Positions 20,719 to 31,261 of a stretch of 64,000 nt of DNA are shown here, piece by piece. This DNA comes from Iphione sp. A-MEVVRFRX5 (Eukaryota): assembly GCA_976226885.1 (NCBI GenBank), contig OZ320322.1, positions 42,966,001 to 43,030,000 of the forward strand. Reading direction: 5' to 3'. Both the position numbers and the translations under genes were made by a program. The notes under the pieces are model-generated. The model made no database searches, had not been told where the DNA came from, and was given only the letters and a program-made list of their open reading frames with translations. The stretch's first letter is position 1, and every line of letters begins with the position of its first letter.

Positions 20719-20890
20719 ATGTCTATTCGACTGTTCCTTGTTGCCTGCCTTGGTCAGTTCCTCTTGGCGCAGGCACAGGAGTCCTGTAACCCTGGGAAGC
20801 CTTGTCCATCTGGATCACGGTGTCATCCTCATAAGGGTGTGTGTGTAGAGGACCTACCTAATGTGACTGATAGACCAGTAGTCTGGCTAG
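20719..20890 (+). CDS. Sphingomyelinase C-like gene, coding exon 1 (signal peptide + Cys-rich module)
   Basis: MSIRLFLVACLGQFLLAQAQ signal-like segment, then CNPGKPCPSGSRCHPHKGVC. Donor G|GTAGGT at 20891 is phase 1 and compatible with the next exon. An upstream acceptor ATCAG|GCCACGATG suggests a non-coding first exon. Confidence 0.75.
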
Positions 20891-21324
20891 GTAGGTATTG
20901 TGATATACACCTCCAAGGTGTGATACACATTTCAGGTTAATCCAGCGGGAGGATCCAGCATACATCGATCTGACATCTTGTGCTGGAGCGATGTATGTAA
21001 CTGCATCATATGTAACTGCATCATAATGCATAGTAGGTTATTCTTGCAGCTTTTAGTGCTCACCATCTTAGACACATGACAGTATCACACCGATAAATAT
21101 AGATAGTATATATAGGACTTAATGATCAGTATTTTAACGAGATAAGTGTTGTATTGACCTAAGAGTGTATAACCAATACGCAATAGTCCGACTAGAGATA
21201 TTACATAGACCAAAAGGTATATGATTAAAGGGTTTTATGCTGACAGGGGGCTATAAAAAGTTCTTGTAATGTAATTCATCCAAGAGTAGGCTCGTTAGGT
21301 AGTCATCATATTGGTTTAGTCTTA

Positions 21325-21655
21325 GGCCTAAACAAAAAATTGCTGTGTTTCCAGTAATCCGACTGACCCTATATTAGGGACCTGTGTTACTTACTACTTA
21401 CTACTTATTTTTTTCTTGTTTTTTGAATAAATTTAGAATGATTCACAATAGAGACATGTTCTATACACCAAATTGTTCCTTATGTTACAGGCTTTCATTT
21501 TTCATTAAAATCTAACCAGTATAAGTAACATTACCTTATACATCTGTTGCTTGCAGCATCCTTTTACATTAAAAAAAAGAAACAAAAATGTACCCCACTG
21601 ACCGACCCTGTATTTTTTTTAGCTTGTTACCGGAAACACAGAACTTTTTTAGGCC
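21325..21655. mobile_element. PIF/Harbinger-type MITE in sphingomyelinase intron 1
   Basis: Imperfect TIRs GGCCTAAA..AAA.T..TGTGTTTCC.GTAA flanked by a TTA duplication at 21322-21324 and 21656-21658. Confidence 0.75.
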
Positions 21656-23914
21656 TTATTTAGAATTCATTGGGTTTGATCATTTTTCTAGACAGGTAGG
21701 TGTCTTCACGTGAGCGCTTTATAGTTTTGTAGACATGGCTTCACATGGAAATTATCCACGAAATTATTTGCTTAGTCAACCAGATAGGCATTATACTAAG
21801 GTGCAGAATACCAGATGTGATCAGCTATGTATCACATCAGCAAAGGTGCTTTGTTCACTCATTTACTCACAGTTTCATAGGGTAAAACACAGGTGTCATG
21901 TTGATATGGTGCAAGATGAGGTTTTGTATTAAAGTGGGCTTATTAATCAGAGATGTGACTTGAGAATGTCACTCTTGACCGGCAGATATATAAAACCCTA
22001 CGATGAAACAAGTGCTTTAGTAAACAAGAAAAATTTTATAAGCTGTTTTTGGTGATTCATACACTTCTCGTAGAATACAAGGGGTATGAACTGCTACTTG
22101 TCTCACGCAAATCTAACCAGTACTTTTAACTAGCATATTGAGAAAGCAGCAACCATGATTTTATTGGGGGGGGGGAATAAATGCTACGGAAACATAGTAA
22201 AGGAGCCTTTGCTGACATGCTCCTGGCTGGTTGTTTGACGATATGTATCATCTCTGAAGCCAGATGGGAAAAGCTAGGTGCTAGTGCAACTTGGAAAAGA
22301 GACCAAAACAGAGCAACTTGGAAAAGGGGAACGAAAGGTATTTTTTATTCTAGTACGATGTTAGGATTGCCTTAATCCACAACGTGAATGCCTAAGAACG
22401 TAAGTTCACTGACGATGCCTTTACTTTCCTGGTTAGCCCCTTTCGCGATGTAATCTACAGTATCTACGAGGTAGACAAGTACATGTAGTAGGTATCCAAA
22501 ACAAGTGTAACATGATACGTCACTTTGCTGTCGATCGTCCTTCAGCTGAGCTAGTGAGTAGCAGTTTGACCAGAGAAAGAGTTAGGAGCATTCGGCTTGT
22601 CTTACTTGGACGCCGAGATCTGACAGCATCCGTCCATATATCAACACGGTTAAGTTTAATACGAGTATAGTAATGGATGTGCCGAGGCAACTGTACCGCC
22701 TGTCATGCCGGCCACCACGTTCTGAAGAGCCATTGCTGGCTTGATCCCCGTGTGACTACTGCGCTGTATTTCGGGGTCACGTCCTCTCTACCCCCCTGGC
22801 TAGGTTATGGTGTTTCATGGGATAGTCCAACCGATGTTTCCACAACTAATCTTCGATTCAAATAAGAGCAGGCAGAAGGATGAAGAGAAATTTTTAAATT
22901 GTATGTTAGAGCTTGACAGATGAAGATGGAGAGGGTTAAATACAACCAACCCTCCCTATCATTACACACCGAAGCCAGAGAGACTCCTTTCAGATTCTTC
23001 CGGCAACGCATTGCAATTTCCATGTTATTTTTGTATGTATCTTTGTCTGGAATATCCATTAGCCAAAACAAGCTTAAATAATGCTGGCACACCACACATG
23101 CTGATTTTTCCAGCCCTTTTACTGTGAAATTATCACGTTGACGATGGCATGCAAAACTATCTGGAAAGGGAAGGTCTGGCCGTGCTGTCTTCATCGGTGG
23201 TGTTAACGAAGGTTAGAGTGGATAGGGGGATGCAGAGAAGTGGGCAGACGGAGCTAAACACAGTGCTGTTAGATAGAGAAGGTTGTATATTATGTCATAT
23301 TAGATAGGGTTAGTAATAGCTAGGGCAGATAGAGTCAAAGTCCCCTATATGGGTGACAACTTACAAAGAAATGGAAAATGCTGGATAAGCACACACCCAG
23401 AAAAAACTATTTTGATGAATAGTTATTGGGCCTTTTAATTCAATGCGAACCGTTATTTGTCCTCCTAAATATTTGAGAAACGTTATGAAGCAATTTCTGG
23501 TGGTACGCTATCAAAGATCAAGTTCTTGGTGAAGATTTTTCTGCTCCTTTAAGTGCTATGGATGCTTTTAATTCTTGGTGAAGCGTTATAGGCTGTACCC
23601 TGACCCATCCCACCCCTGCAGAATAGGCCAACAAGAACTTATCACCAAGAAATTAATTGCCCCTGAATGATGTTTGTCATTGAAATCCATGGCATGTCTC
23701 TTTCAGTGAATACGGTATTATGGATCAGTGTCTATGGACTTTCAGAAACTCTGCCAGAGCTGATGGATATTCTGAGCTTTCAGCTGACATACGTTGAGAT
23801 TTGCCAGTTTAGCATCCTTCTGAGTTGAATGTGGGGAAATATTGGTGTGTTGGTCCATGCCTCTTTACACTGGTGCTATGATTTGTAGCATTGTATTATT
23901 TCCTGTCATCCTAG

Positions 23915-24090
23915 ACGACACCGACGACCGCTGCGACAGAAGCGAGGAGGATTGTGAATTGTTCGGATTTCAATCCGCTGGAAGCCATCCCAGCGGGAGG
24001 GGAGACACCTGGTGTAAGGAGGGGGAAATAGTGCGCTGTAAAGTGCCGGACGCGCCCCCTACGAAGACTTCTCCTGTAAACGAATTTCGG
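23915..24090 (+). CDS. Sphingomyelinase C-like gene, coding exon 2 (second Cys-rich module + linker)
   Basis: Acceptor TCCTAG|AC and donor CGG|GTGAGT. Encodes DDTDDRCDRSEEDC..WCKEGEIVRC..NEFR, which joins in frame to VMTYNV. Confidence 0.85.
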
Positions 24091-29200: not shown

Positions 29201-30179
29201 ATGCCCTTTGTATCTGACCTGGGGACTGTAAGGAGAAGAAGGAAGAATAACTTACACTTTTGGAAAGGATCGCTTACCTTCTTCCAACCCTTCTATATGT
29301 ACAAATAAGGGAACATCATAGCAGTGAAGTCTGTTTTGTGGACTTCACAACAAATGTTTAACACCGAGATTGAAGGCCAGTTAACCCTAAACCATGTTTT
29401 AATTGTGAACACAAAATGCAAAATGCAATATAAATTGTAGTTCAAACATCAAGAACAAAGTGTACTATCTATACGTTATAAATATCACGATTTAATGTTT
29501 GAGCAAACCATTTAAATTCATAAAGAATTACCTTCTCTAAAGAAGATGCCTGCTGCCGTGTATAGCATGCATAAAAGTGTTAACAGACGAAGTTCTTACC
29601 ACCATAGAGACACACAATCAAATCCTTCTCTCTTCTTCGTAGGTATTTTGCCAGTCCTTATTGTATATGGTAAACAACCCAGACCACGGTTTAGAACCAC
29701 TACATTCCCCAAAGTGGGCCCCTAGTTTCTTCATAACTGTAACAAAGCCCACCCGAAACAAATTCTAAAGACTGAGTTCTTGACTTGATTTTATTGCTAT
29801 GTAAGACACATTAGGACAAAGTCTACGTCTTAACGTACCAGATGAAATATGTTTTTAAGGCCAACGCGAAATTTGCACAATCCGGAATTGCACCGCAAAT
29901 TTCCCAAAATGCACTGTGCATTTTTGGCATTCTCTGTTTGTCCAGTTTTGCACACCCCTCTCACGGGCAGAACTAAAATATTCACAGTTTTACCATGTGA
30001 GGTGAGACAGATAAAATGGGGCAAGTCAGAAAAGAAGAATAAAGAGGAAAGTGTAATGAGAGGCAAAGAAACGGTTACAATGGAAGATAGGCTCTCTTCT
30101 TCCCTCTCTCTGTCCCTCTCTCCTTTCCCTCCCCCTCTATTTTCTTTCATGTCTCCCCACACCTCCCTTCCTCTCACCC

Positions 30180-30181
30180 TC

Positions 30182-30252
<71 letters not shown>
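30180..30252. repeat. (CT)n microsatellite
   Basis: Directly visible. Confidence 0.97.
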
Positions 30253-30493
30253 TCATTCGCCTGTTTCCCTCCCTCCCCTGTAATTTTAGACTACATTTCT
30301 GATACTGCAATTCTAGAATTGCGCAAATTCCCCTGTGCCGCGTAACATGTCAACGCTCCATACTTCCCCTACAGTATATTGTATGTGACACGTACTATAA
30401 CTGCCCATAACTGCCATACTGCCTACATGTCCCCAGCAGAAAATCTACTTAAGAGGCTCTTTCACAAATGCATTACCTTCGCTTTCGCCGCAG

Positions 30494-31261
30494 GAAGTAT
30501 TCATGGGAGGCTGCTTCGCCAACCAGCTGGACATCCGGGCTCTCTTCTGCCACTATGGTTTCTGTCATTTTACGCCCACGGTAGATGAAGAGGGTGCACC
30601 CGTACCTGGAGGCATGTTCGTCGTGTCCCGCTGGCCCATCCTCGCCCTAGACCAGCTCGTCTTCGATAACGATGCAGATGGCACGTGGGACGGCTTCTCT
30701 CCTAAGGGCGTGTCATATGCCAAACTCTTGAAGAAGGCGGACGGCAGCTCTCGTACTTACCACGTGATGACCACACACTTCCAGTCTGGTAACCATACCG
30801 TCACCCGTGAGTCGCAGGCTGGGGAGTGGGCCCAATGGTTCAGCGCCAAGAACGTACCCAAATCCGAGGCGGTGGTCCTGTGCGGCGACCTGAACGTCGA
30901 CCGCTATTCGGAGGAGCGCCACCTGGATGTGATCCTGGCTAACCTTGGAGCCATTGACCCGCCAATATCTGGCACGCTCAACGTGACCTCGGACAAAGAC
31001 ATCAACGATATCAAAGATGACGGCGACTCACAGTGGCTCGACTACGTCCTCTACAGGAAGGACCATCTGCAGCCTGCCATCTCTTCCCAGACGGCGCTCT
31101 ACCCTCTGGCCGACAAGCAGTACGAGGCCTGCTGGTGTGAGCAGTGCGTCACCCTTGATGCCGAATACATCTATCCGGACGACTTGGCCTGTCAACAAAC
31201 CAGGAAGGCCCGCCATCTCTCTGACCACTTCCCCGTTCTCGGCTCCTTTATCTTCTCGTAA
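30494..31261 (+). CDS. Sphingomyelinase C-like gene, coding exon 4 (EEP/DNase I-like catalytic domain)
   Basis: Acceptor CGCCGCAG|GAA completes the LQ|E metal ligand. Motifs SRWPI, DGFSPKGVSYAK, THFQS, GDLN, WLDY and SDHFPV are typical of bacterial-type neutral sphingomyelinases. Confidence 0.93.
   Translation, partial: EVFMGGCFANQLDIRALFCHYGFCHFTPTVDEEGAPVPGGMFVVSRWPILALDQLVFDNDADGTWDGFSPKGVSYAKLLKKADGSSRTYHVMTTHFQSGNHTVTRESQAGEWAQWFSAKNVPKSEAVVLCGDLNVDRYSEERHLDVILANLGAIDPPISGTLNVTSDKDINDIKDDGDSQWLDYVLYRKDHLQPAISSQTALYPLADKQYEACWCEQCVTLDAEYIYPDDLACQQTRKARHLSDHFPVLGSFIFS

What the first reader, a model, noticed from the sequence alone, without database searches (positions are those of the whole stretch)
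20719..31261. Intron-containing, secreted bacterial-type sphingomyelinase C in an animal-like genome
Seen: four exons (20719-20890, 23915-24090, 27622-27747, 30494-31261) with GT-AG junctions and consistent phases (1,0,0) give a 413-aa open frame with a signal-peptide-like N-terminus. The ORF track shows only the last part. Known: TYN, QE, D..S.KG, TH.Q, GDLN, LDY and SDH are the active-site motifs of Bacillus cereus SMase and Staphylococcus beta-toxin, whereas vertebrate neutral SMases are membrane-anchored. Inference: this is a soluble, toxin-like lipase (defence, digestion, mucus or venom), possibly from an old bacteria-to-animal transfer that later gained introns.
Basis: partly seen in the sequence, partly recalled or inferred. 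Interest (0 to 1): 0.72.

Follow-up and report, generated by a model that had tools for sequence, protein, structure and literature searches.

The report
Bacterial-type secreted sphingomyelinase family in invertebrates
This intact four-exon animal gene encodes a predicted secreted enzyme of the bacterial sphingomyelinase C type; it belongs to an old family shared by worms, acorn worms and echinoderms whose closest non-animal relatives are environmental bacteria, so it was likely taken from bacteria early in animal evolution and likely breaks down membrane lipids outside the cell rather than acting as a venom.

Summary
The gene model is right. Four GT-AG exons give an open 413-aa frame, each junction is the best-scoring in-frame choice, and relatives align across all junctions. 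The central catalytic residues of Bacillus sphingomyelinase C are all kept.

The gene is not a one-off. It belongs to a clade seen in 14 named species of 5 bilaterian phyla, with a paralog in this genome. Trees place that clade (100/98) as sister to uncultured environmental bacteria (Tectomicrobia, a Zetaproteobacteria MAG and others), not to Bacillus, Leptospira or Streptomyces (AU p=0.0002). Most animal members and many of these bacteria share an N-terminal four-cysteine module that matched no known family or fold.

The best reading is one old bacterium-to-animal transfer before the protostome-deuterostome split (about 60%), yielding an extracellular sphingolipid phospholipase C. Related enzymes also occur in protists and giant viruses, so vertical descent with transfer into bacteria is only borderline rejected (p=0.049). 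The toxin reading is weak: the edge metal site is altered, and some echinoderm and hemichordate members carry anchor-like tails. No RNA or activity data were obtained. The scan's earlier notes held nothing on this family.

The parts
20719..20890 (+). Exon 1 (residues 1-57 plus one base): ATG, predicted signal peptide, four-Cys module A, start of module B; phase-1 donor
   Evidence: homologous N-termini in Owenia and Dimorphilus; same phase-1 intron in the C11 paralog
20719..20775 (+). Predicted signal peptide, residues 1-19, cleavage predicted after A19
   Evidence: hydropathy peak 2.31; pattern read from the sequence; no SignalP run
20785..20844 (+). Module A, C23-C42, small four-Cys unit seen in the annelid-type members and the paralog
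   Evidence: only weak Pfam hits below cut-off (Lustrin_cystein E 0.005, EB E 0.008)
23915..24090 (+). Exon 2 (residues 58-116): most of four-Cys module B (C64, C71, C91, C99) and linker; phase-0 donor
   Evidence: profile of animal module B hits residues 55-102, E 2e-9; alignment A4; model of a bacterial copy pLDDT 94
27622..27747 (+). Exon 3 (residues 117-158): first strand of the catalytic domain with N121 (= N16) and the R-x-C-R motif shared with the sister bacteria; phase-0 donor
   Evidence: same intron-3 position in the paralog
30494..31261 (+). Exon 4 (residues 159-413, stop): E159, D224, H253, D290, N292, D341, D402, H403 (= E53, D126, H151, D195, N197, D253, D295, H296)
   Evidence: Pfam PF03372 E 1e-6; TIGR03395 E 3e-25, below cut-off; PDB 2DDR E 9e-16; residue map
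31130..31192 (+). Cys-rich insert C371-C391 in place of the short aromatic beta-hairpin of classical SMase C
   Evidence: alignment; a Cys-stapled pattern in 15 of 19 animal and 8 of 8 sister-bacterial rows, 0 of 8 outgroup rows
31433..31438 (+). Candidate polyadenylation signal AATAAA
   Evidence: use not shown

Best explanation
This is an intact, intron-bearing gene of an old bilaterian family of bacterial-type sphingomyelinase C enzymes, likely gained once from an environmental bacterium before protostomes and deuterostomes split, and predicted to be secreted and to cut sphingomyelin-type lipids outside the cell, most likely in the gut or surface mucus. Shown: gene structure, family membership, conserved active site, sister relation to bacteria. 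Inferred mechanism: the signal peptide routes the protein through the ER, where the Cys modules form disulfides; E159 and H403 hold Mg2+ and water at the central site, H403 and H253 act as base and acid, and the phosphodiester is cut on the ceramide side to give ceramide plus phosphocholine (or phosphoethanolamine). Module B and the Cys-rich insert would replace the short aromatic hairpin and edge site as the surface-docking parts. Odds by step: gene real 0.97; SMase-C-type activity 0.8; bacterium-to-animal direction 0.6; housekeeping extracellular role rather than venom 0.7.
For: Gene model. N16, E53, H151, D195, N197, D253, D295 and H296 equivalents invariant in the window protein, 33 of 33 named animal and 16 of 16 sister-bacterial proteins. 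Model of relative P0002 (pLDDT 81) matches B. cereus SMase at Z 31.7, rmsd 1.9, 273 aligned. Named members in annelids, a priapulid, flatworms, hemichordates and echinoderms. Animal clade 100/98 and animals plus sister bacteria 100/97 under LG+C20 (49 rows); 100/97 and 97/90 with protist rows added (LG+G4, 54 rows). Sister rows lie among bacterial genes: beside rplQ/rpoA-like ORFs, lspA-like and RluD-like ORFs (read from translations) and sigma-54 regulators, histidine kinases, AcrB (Pfam). Module B in 11 of 12 animal, 4 of 6 sister-bacterial, 5 of 7 further bacterial-type, 0 of 14 protist-type, 0 of 6 outgroup rows; R-x-C-R in 10 of 12 and 6 of 6 against 0 of the other 36; the insert before the LDY strand in 12 of 14 protist-type rows and 0 of 18 animal and sister rows. 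Animals plus protist-type rows with the sister bacteria outside is rejected, p=0.002. A separate SMPD3-like gene exists on C15. 10 of 33 named animal members, all echinoderm or hemichordate, end in a hydrophobic anchor-like tail, as expected of ecto-enzymes. A signal-peptide-bearing 356-aa protein whose listed match is a sphingomyelinase C (P17627) was found in nemertean mucus (PMC12846013, passages and Table 2; sequence not seen, membership assumed).
Against: No activity data. Identity to characterised SMases is only 27-30%, and EEP enzymes with the same metal site can prefer other substrates (PMC10704324, passages). The wider clade is mixed: an oomycete (Aphanomyces P0282), an ichthyosporean (Amoebidium P0195) and giant-virus loci sit just outside, and the backbone there is unresolved. 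AU tests do not reject animals plus Amoebidium (p=0.18), nor a single clade of module-B bacteria beside animals (p=0.11), and only barely reject eukaryote descent with the sister bacteria nested inside (p=0.049). The sister bacteria are patchy: 1 of 17 genomes of one carrier's phylum had a close copy, and 2 of 11 loci from the genome scan were close. SMPD2 and SMPD3 were not in the trees. The tissue of expression is unknown.
Confidence: 0.5

Rival explanations
1. The enzyme was inherited vertically from unicellular eukaryotes (as in Amoebidium and oomycetes), lost in many animal lines, and passed from an early animal or holozoan into environmental bacteria, which would make the sister bacteria recipients rather than donors.
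For: Protist and giant-virus members lie in the same 100/99 inner clade. Animals plus Amoebidium not rejected, p=0.18. Sister bacteria are rare and scattered over unrelated phyla. Their disulfide-rich secreted build is eukaryote-like (inference).
Against: Module B is in two bacterial groups and in 0 of 14 protist-type rows; protists carry an insert that animals and their sister bacteria lack. The sister bacteria branch outside all animals, not inside them. The constrained tree is worse, p=0.049. No named sponge, cnidarian or choanoflagellate member among the listed hits, though many hits are unnamed.
Confidence: 0.3
2. The protein is a defensive or predatory cytolysin that lyses cells by cutting sphingomyelin in the outer leaflet, as Staphylococcus beta-toxin and B. 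cereus SMase do.
For: Predicted soluble and secreted; full catalytic set; fold closest to haemolytic SMases. A probable relative was listed as a toxin candidate in nemertean mucus (PMC12846013). The Cys-rich insert keeps aromatic residues that might still bind membranes.
Against: Edge-site residues N57, E99 and D100 align to G163, V195 and P196, and the hairpin is replaced; changes at these sites lower membrane binding and haemolysis in Bc-SMase (PMC9710629, passages). The family is kept in animals not known as venomous (recalled), and 10 of 33 named members have anchor-like tails. Glycera venom sphingomyelinases are of the acid class, not this one (PMC4202326, passages).
Confidence: 0.15
3. 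The enzyme keeps the SMase C fold but acts mainly on another phosphodiester, such as ceramide aminoethylphosphonate, phosphocholine on glycans or glycolipids, or lysophospholipids, with module B as a carbohydrate- or surface-binding unit.
For: Substrate-side residues differ from Bc-SMase (D156 aligns to N258 and varies across the family). A separate EEP family removes phosphocholine from GlcNAc using the same metal site (PMC10704324). Module B occurs in up to five tandem copies in bacteria, as binding modules do; its best, weak fold match is the lectin MVL (Z 3.9, rmsd 3.7, 48 aligned). Marine invertebrates are rich in such lipids (recalled).
Against: Sequence and fold are far closer to SMase C (Z about 31) than to other EEP enzymes (Z 21.5 or less). 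The MVL match is within the range of chance.
Confidence: 0.2
4. A recent, lineage-specific transfer from a Bacillus- or Staphylococcus-like bacterium, or bacterial contamination.
For: The only solved relatives by sequence are such enzymes.
Against: Three long introns, flanking animal transposons, a 65-Mb contig, an intron-bearing paralog on another contig, relatives in five phyla, and AU p=0.0002 against joining animals with the Bacillus, Leptospira and Streptomyces enzymes.
Confidence: 0.01

Closest known systems
Bacterial sphingomyelinase C (B. cereus SMase 2DDR/2DDS, S. aureus beta-toxin, Listeria SmcL 1ZWX, Streptomyces 7CNE; NCBIfam TIGR03395)
   Same: DNase-I-like EEP fold (Z 30-32 for relative P0002), all central metal and catalytic residues, predicted secretion.
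   Different: 27-30% identity; 89.5 bits for exon 4 against a cut-off of 248.2; edge metal site altered; hairpin replaced by a Cys-rich insert; two extra N-terminal Cys modules; three introns; separate branch of the tree.
Database-annotated 'sphingomyelinase C-like' proteins of Priapulus, Saccoglossus, Ptychodera, crinoids and sea urchins, and their unnamed orthologs in Owenia, Dimorphilus and Macrostomum
   Same: Same clade, 35-42% identity over most of the length, same module B and motifs.
   Different: These are labels in databases; no functional or phylogenetic study was found. The window protein lacks the C-terminal anchor-like tail of many ambulacrarian members and has module A.
Uncultured-bacterial SMase-like proteins with module B (Candidatus Tectomicrobia P0054, MAG P0031, Zetaproteobacteria MAG L016 without the module)
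   Same: Sister group; 32-36% identity; share R-x-C-R, the Cys-stapled insert and mostly module B.
   Different: Intronless genes among bacterial neighbours; no module A; uncharacterised.
Animal neutral sphingomyelinases (human structures 8J2F and 5UVG; SMPD2 and SMPD3 by recall of names for 8J2F)
   Same: Same superfamily and catalytic core.
   Different: Membrane-bound and intracellular (recalled); weaker fold match (Z 23.4 and 20.4); not among the 10 hits of the exon-4 sequence search at E up to 1; this genome has its own SMPD3-like gene.
Vertebrate intestinal alkaline sphingomyelinase ENPP7 (recalled, analogy only)
   Same: Extracellular sphingomyelin breakdown by an anchored or released ecto-enzyme.
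   Different: Unrelated fold; not compared here.

Membership tests
EEP superfamily (PF03372) | Profile match above the curated cut-off | tested here: met
   28.9 bits against 24.5 for exon 4 alone
Sphingomyelinase C, broad class | Central metal and catalytic residues N16, E53, H151, D195, N197, D253, D295, H296 | tested here: met
   N121, E159, H253, D290, N292, D341, D402, H403; numbering set on E53 of a B. thuringiensis sph; roles of N16, E53, N197, H151 and H296 from PMC9710629 passages and reference titles, the rest recalled
Sphingomyelinase C, broad class | Fold closer to bacterial SMase than to other EEP enzymes | tested here: met
   Model of relative P0002, not of the window protein itself: Z 31.7 against 23.4 or less for non-bacterial-SMase entries
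Sphingomyelinase C, broad class | Mg2+-dependent hydrolysis of sphingomyelin to ceramide and phosphocholine | not testable with these tools
   needs an assay
Classical haemolytic SMase C (TIGR03395 equivalog) | Score above the curated cut-off of 248.2 bits | tested here: not met
   89.5 bits for exon 4, which covers profile positions 89-270 of 286; the three bacterial relatives tested are also under the cut-off
Classical haemolytic SMase C (TIGR03395 equivalog) | Edge metal site F55, N57, E99, D100 | tested here: not met
   F161 kept; G163, V195, P196 differ. Relatives keep E99 in 22 of 33 and have N for D100 in 30 of 33.
Classical haemolytic SMase C (TIGR03395 equivalog) | Short beta-hairpin with aromatic apex W284/F285 | tested here: inconclusive
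   Replaced by a longer Cys-rich insert; W284 aligned to L379 and to W372
Classical haemolytic SMase C (TIGR03395 equivalog) | Groups with Bacillus, Leptospira and Streptomyces enzymes | tested here: not met
   AU p=0.0002; Staphylococcus and Listeria were not in the tree
Animal neutral SMase (SMPD2, SMPD3, SMPD5) | Membrane-spanning or membrane-inserted hydrophobic segments | tested here: not met
   No body segment above hydropathy 1.17; chain ends 10 residues after H403
Animal neutral SMase (SMPD2, SMPD3, SMPD5) | Orthology in a tree | not tested
   Only one exon of the SMPD3-like gene was recovered, so none was placed in a tree
Bilaterian 'sphingomyelinase C-like' clade | One supported clade with named invertebrate members; module B; R-x-C-R motif | tested here: met
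   100/98; module B hit at 55-102; motif counts
Domesticated horizontal transfer from bacteria | Integrated in host chromosome with introns | tested here: met
   65-Mb contig C22, three introns, paralog on C11
Domesticated horizontal transfer from bacteria | Nested within bacterial diversity with eukaryote descent rejected | tested here: inconclusive
   Sister to bacteria in every tree; p=0.002 and 0.049, 0.18 and 0.021, 0.195 and 0.11
Domesticated horizontal transfer from bacteria | Transcribed and spliced | not tested
   No reads were laid on the gene; see Tried and rejected

The most novel reading that the evidence does not exclude
A stem bilaterian took a modular, disulfide-rich sphingomyelinase C from environmental bacteria, giving animals an unrecognised extra class of sphingomyelinase: extracellular, soluble or anchored, equipped with an undescribed four-cysteine binding domain, kept in annelids, priapulids, flatworms, hemichordates and echinoderms, and lost in the chordate, arthropod and nematode model animals, which is why it was missed.
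Probability: 0.45. Interest if true: 0.68.

Novelty: new variant of a known kind. Interest (0 to 1): 0.5.

Why it matters
Animal sphingomyelinases are usually counted as acid, membrane-bound neutral and alkaline types, plus spider SMase D (recalled). This family would add a secreted bacterial-type class present across Bilateria. If the direction holds, it is a gene transfer dated to the bilaterian stem, with introns, duplications and anchor tails gained afterwards. It also warns venom and mucus studies that a hit to a bacterial haemolytic SMase in a worm may be an ordinary member of this old family, not a contaminant or a recruited toxin. Module B is a small, well-predicted domain without a Pfam or PDB match and can be tested for binding. 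The weight is limited: databases already label members 'sphingomyelinase C-like', and activity, tissue and direction remain untested.

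Tried and rejected
RNA: no RNA holder was listed for 30494-31400; this is no evidence either way, and no reads were laid.

Paralogs: three searches of the own genome gave only the window gene and one paralog on C11; the search scores only the best candidates. No tandem copy in 124 kb around the gene.

SMPD3-like outgroup: further exons were not found in 30 kb, so it was left out of the trees. The frameshifted bacterial copy L015 was left out of the trees. P0179 and P0200 were dropped as too short. 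The careful trees used 43-54 rows chosen by hand from 168-178 rows of the fast trees; long-branch rows such as L025, L043 and P0107 were left out of most. Rows called protist-type (12 of 14 unnamed) and further bacterial-type are partly assigned by tree position, not by name.

Module B: no Pfam family (best E 0.48 in 1 of 23 members), no PDB sequence match under E 0.9, no Foldseek match at E 0.001 or better, best VIA Z 3.9, no plasmid match, no usable Atlas hit. These blanks do not show a new fold. The Atlas search with P0002 gave only generic EEP clusters.

Literature: ten searches found no paper on this family; 'sphingomyelinase C-like' had 0 hits. Most subscription papers are not searched. 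A Saccoglossus member is deposited as 'sphingomyelin phosphodiesterase-like protein 170' (APU50761.1). I recall such names from curation around the hemichordate genome paper, but PMC4729200 had no 'sphingomyelin' in its main text or its 2 held supplement files (section 21 read), so earlier notice of the family as microbe-like cannot be excluded. The supplement of PMC12846013 could not be read, so its nemertean sequence was not compared. PMC10674444 (passages) concerns SMase D and does not bear.

Earlier scan notes: none by sequence or place; 8 by words, all on other genes. No complex prediction was run.

Full report
1. Observation. The window is contig C22 (65 Mb) of a 1.18-Gb genome and holds animal-type transposons. 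Each junction is the best-scoring of the open in-frame GT/AG alternatives within 60 bp when scored against a profile of animal relatives (1 of 24, 1 of 18, 1 of 17). The spliced protein aligns end to end with annelid proteins, 39-42% identity, across all junctions. A paralog on C11 shares introns 1 and 3 exactly. The model is therefore secure, although splicing was not seen in reads.

2. Anatomy. Residues 1-19 look like a signal peptide (hydropathy and AQA pattern; no predictor available). Module A (C23-C42) is a small Cys unit of the annelid-type members. Module B (about 55-100, four Cys) is shared with most relatives. The catalytic domain runs from about 112 to 413, with no membrane-spanning segment and no tail. 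Against B. cereus numbering, N16, E53, D126, H151, D195, N197, D253, D295 and H296 map to N121, E159, D224, H253, D290, N292, D341, D402 and H403; eight of these nine are invariant in 33 of 33 named animal and 16 of 16 sister-bacterial proteins, D126 in 27 of 33 and 16 of 16. The edge metal site is altered (G163, V195, P196), and the short hairpin is replaced by a longer Cys-rich insert; in Bc-SMase both features support membrane binding and haemolysis (PMC9710629, passages). The window protein was not folded. Its relative P0002 folds at pLDDT 81 and matches B. cereus SMase at Z 31.7, human neutral SMase 8J2F at 23.4 and nSMase2 at 20.4. A bacterial copy of module B folds as a compact strand-helix-strand-strand unit at pLDDT 94.

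3. Range. Named relatives come from 14 species in 5 phyla: Dimorphilus, Owenia; Priapulus; Macrostomum, Cichlidogyrus; Ptychodera, Saccoglossus, Glandiceps; Holothuria, Apostichopus, Anneissia, Antedon, Lytechinus, Diadema. No named sponge, cnidarian, mollusc, arthropod, nematode or chordate was among the listed rows, but the lists are capped (120 of 248; 150 of 6269; only 7999 candidates scored) and many rows are unnamed. The window protein groups with annelid sequences with modest support, which fits an annelid-like host. The genome also has an SMPD3-like gene, so this gene is an addition to, not a form of, nSMase2.

4. Origin. In all trees the animal sequences form one clade (96/92; 100/96; 100/98; 100/97). 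Its sister is a group of uncultured bacteria, including Candidatus Tectomicrobia and a Zetaproteobacteria MAG (join 97/93, 93/90, 100/97, 97/90). The loci examined lie among bacterial genes. Joining animals with the Bacillus, Leptospira and Streptomyces enzymes is rejected (p=0.0002). Characters agree with the tree: R-x-C-R in 10 of 12 animal and 6 of 6 sister rows and in none of the other 36; module B in 11 of 12 animal, 4 of 6 sister, 5 of 7 further bacterial-type and 0 of 14 protist-type rows. Results against a simple story: the next shell outward mixes bacteria, an oomycete-containing clade, Amoebidium and giant viruses on an unresolved backbone. Animals plus protist-type rows are rejected if the sister bacteria are forced outside (p=0.002) but only barely if they may nest inside (p=0.049). 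Animals plus Amoebidium is not rejected (p=0.18), nor is one clade of module-B bacteria (p=0.11). The sister bacteria are patchy. AU tests used LG+G4 and hand-picked subsets, and some groups were defined after seeing earlier trees. I put bacterium-to-stem-bilaterian transfer at about 0.6 and eukaryote descent with transfer into bacteria at about 0.3. Hemichordates hold several deep lineages, so duplications were early.

5. Function. By established knowledge of SMase C (PMC9710629 passages; rest recalled), the conserved site binds Mg2+ and cleaves the ceramide-side bond, giving ceramide and phosphocholine. Secretion and disulfides are predicted. Ten of 33 named animal members, all ambulacrarian, have anchor-like tails, which fits cell-surface ecto-enzymes. 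A probable nemertean member was detected in mucus (PMC12846013, passages and Table 2; sequence not seen). I therefore favour extracellular lipid breakdown in gut or mucus (digestion, surface defence or ceramide signalling) over a dedicated toxin. Glycera venom sphingomyelinases belong to the acid class (PMC4202326, passages). A different phosphodiester substrate remains possible (PMC10704324, passages).

6. Known or new. It works like SMase C but fails membership of the classical haemolytic equivalog on score, edge site and tree position. It is a member of an invertebrate clade that databases label 'sphingomyelinase C-like'. Ten paper searches found no description of the clade, its bacterial sister or module B; papers were seen as listings, and six as passages or one section. 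Unseen supplements, notably that of PMC12846013, and subscription papers may bear on this. The scan's earlier notes held nothing on it.

7. Verdict. Observation confirmed; interpretation partly supported. New variant of a known kind. Interest 0.5: a real, apparently undescribed old enzyme family with a likely bacterial origin and an unnamed domain, held back by the lack of expression and activity data and by the unsettled direction of transfer.

Noticed in passing
G000:C11:41322547-41329661 (minus strand; L004-L005): Intact paralog, 41% identical over 399 aa, six coding exons found plus a missing start exon. Introns 1 and 3 match the window gene in position and phase; intron 2 is shifted by one base (phase 2 against phase 0), a possible case of intron sliding; two extra introns lie in the part matching exon 4. 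It is basic (pI about 7.9) where the window protein is acidic (about 4.9).
   Followed up: yes
G000:C15:84836256-84836504 (L040:835-1800): Exon of a canonical nSMase2/SMPD3-like gene (E 2e-9 to PDB 5UVG).
   Followed up: partly
P0019, P0274, P0197, P0001, P0004, P0108, P0111, P0178: Gene-caller fragments from contigs begin at or just after the window's intron 1, 2 or 3 positions, including members that resemble the echinoderm group; suggests shared old introns, DNA not seen.
   Followed up: partly
P0012, P0014, P0018, P0023, P0025, P0026, P0141, P0271, P0272, P0273: Ambulacrarian members with 40-64-residue tails ending in a hydrophobic stretch, like GPI or membrane anchors.
   Followed up: partly
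L074:3698-5644, L085:2198-4906, P0031, P0147: Bacterial-type relatives with 2-5 copies of module B; L085 has one copy inserted inside the catalytic domain, so the module is mobile.
   Followed up: partly
L130:2944-4068, L097:982-2460: SMase-C-like genes on a giant-virus genome bin (beside a patatin) and on a contig with a poxvirus-A32-type ATPase; they form their own branch.
   Followed up: partly
P0282 (Aphanomyces invadans), P0195 (Amoebidium parasiticum): An oomycete-containing clade of 13 rows and an ichthyosporean sequence with related enzymes that lack module B and carry a different Cys insert.
   Followed up: partly
window 12696-14523 (+): piggyBac-like DDE transposase remnant (DDE_Tnp_1_7, E 2e-41).
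   Followed up: no
window 35629-37410 (-): 593-aa open frame with DUF7869 (E 1e-18) and a basic low-complexity tail, probably a DNA transposon protein.
   Followed up: no
window 42639-45016: Penelope-like element: reverse transcriptase plus GIY-YIG frame at 43302-44978 (+) with a 413-bp inverted duplicate (97.6%) of its 3' end at 42639-43051.
   Followed up: no
L010:6544-9999 (-), upstream of the window: Reverse-transcriptase element with a downstream frame that looks like a tyrosine recombinase (DIRS-like, by eye; RVT_1 E 8e-21).
   Followed up: no
L053, L055, L068, L015: In the Tectomicrobia-type bacteria the gene lies directly upstream of a tRNA-editing (YbaK-like) gene in all four loci examined.
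   Followed up: no
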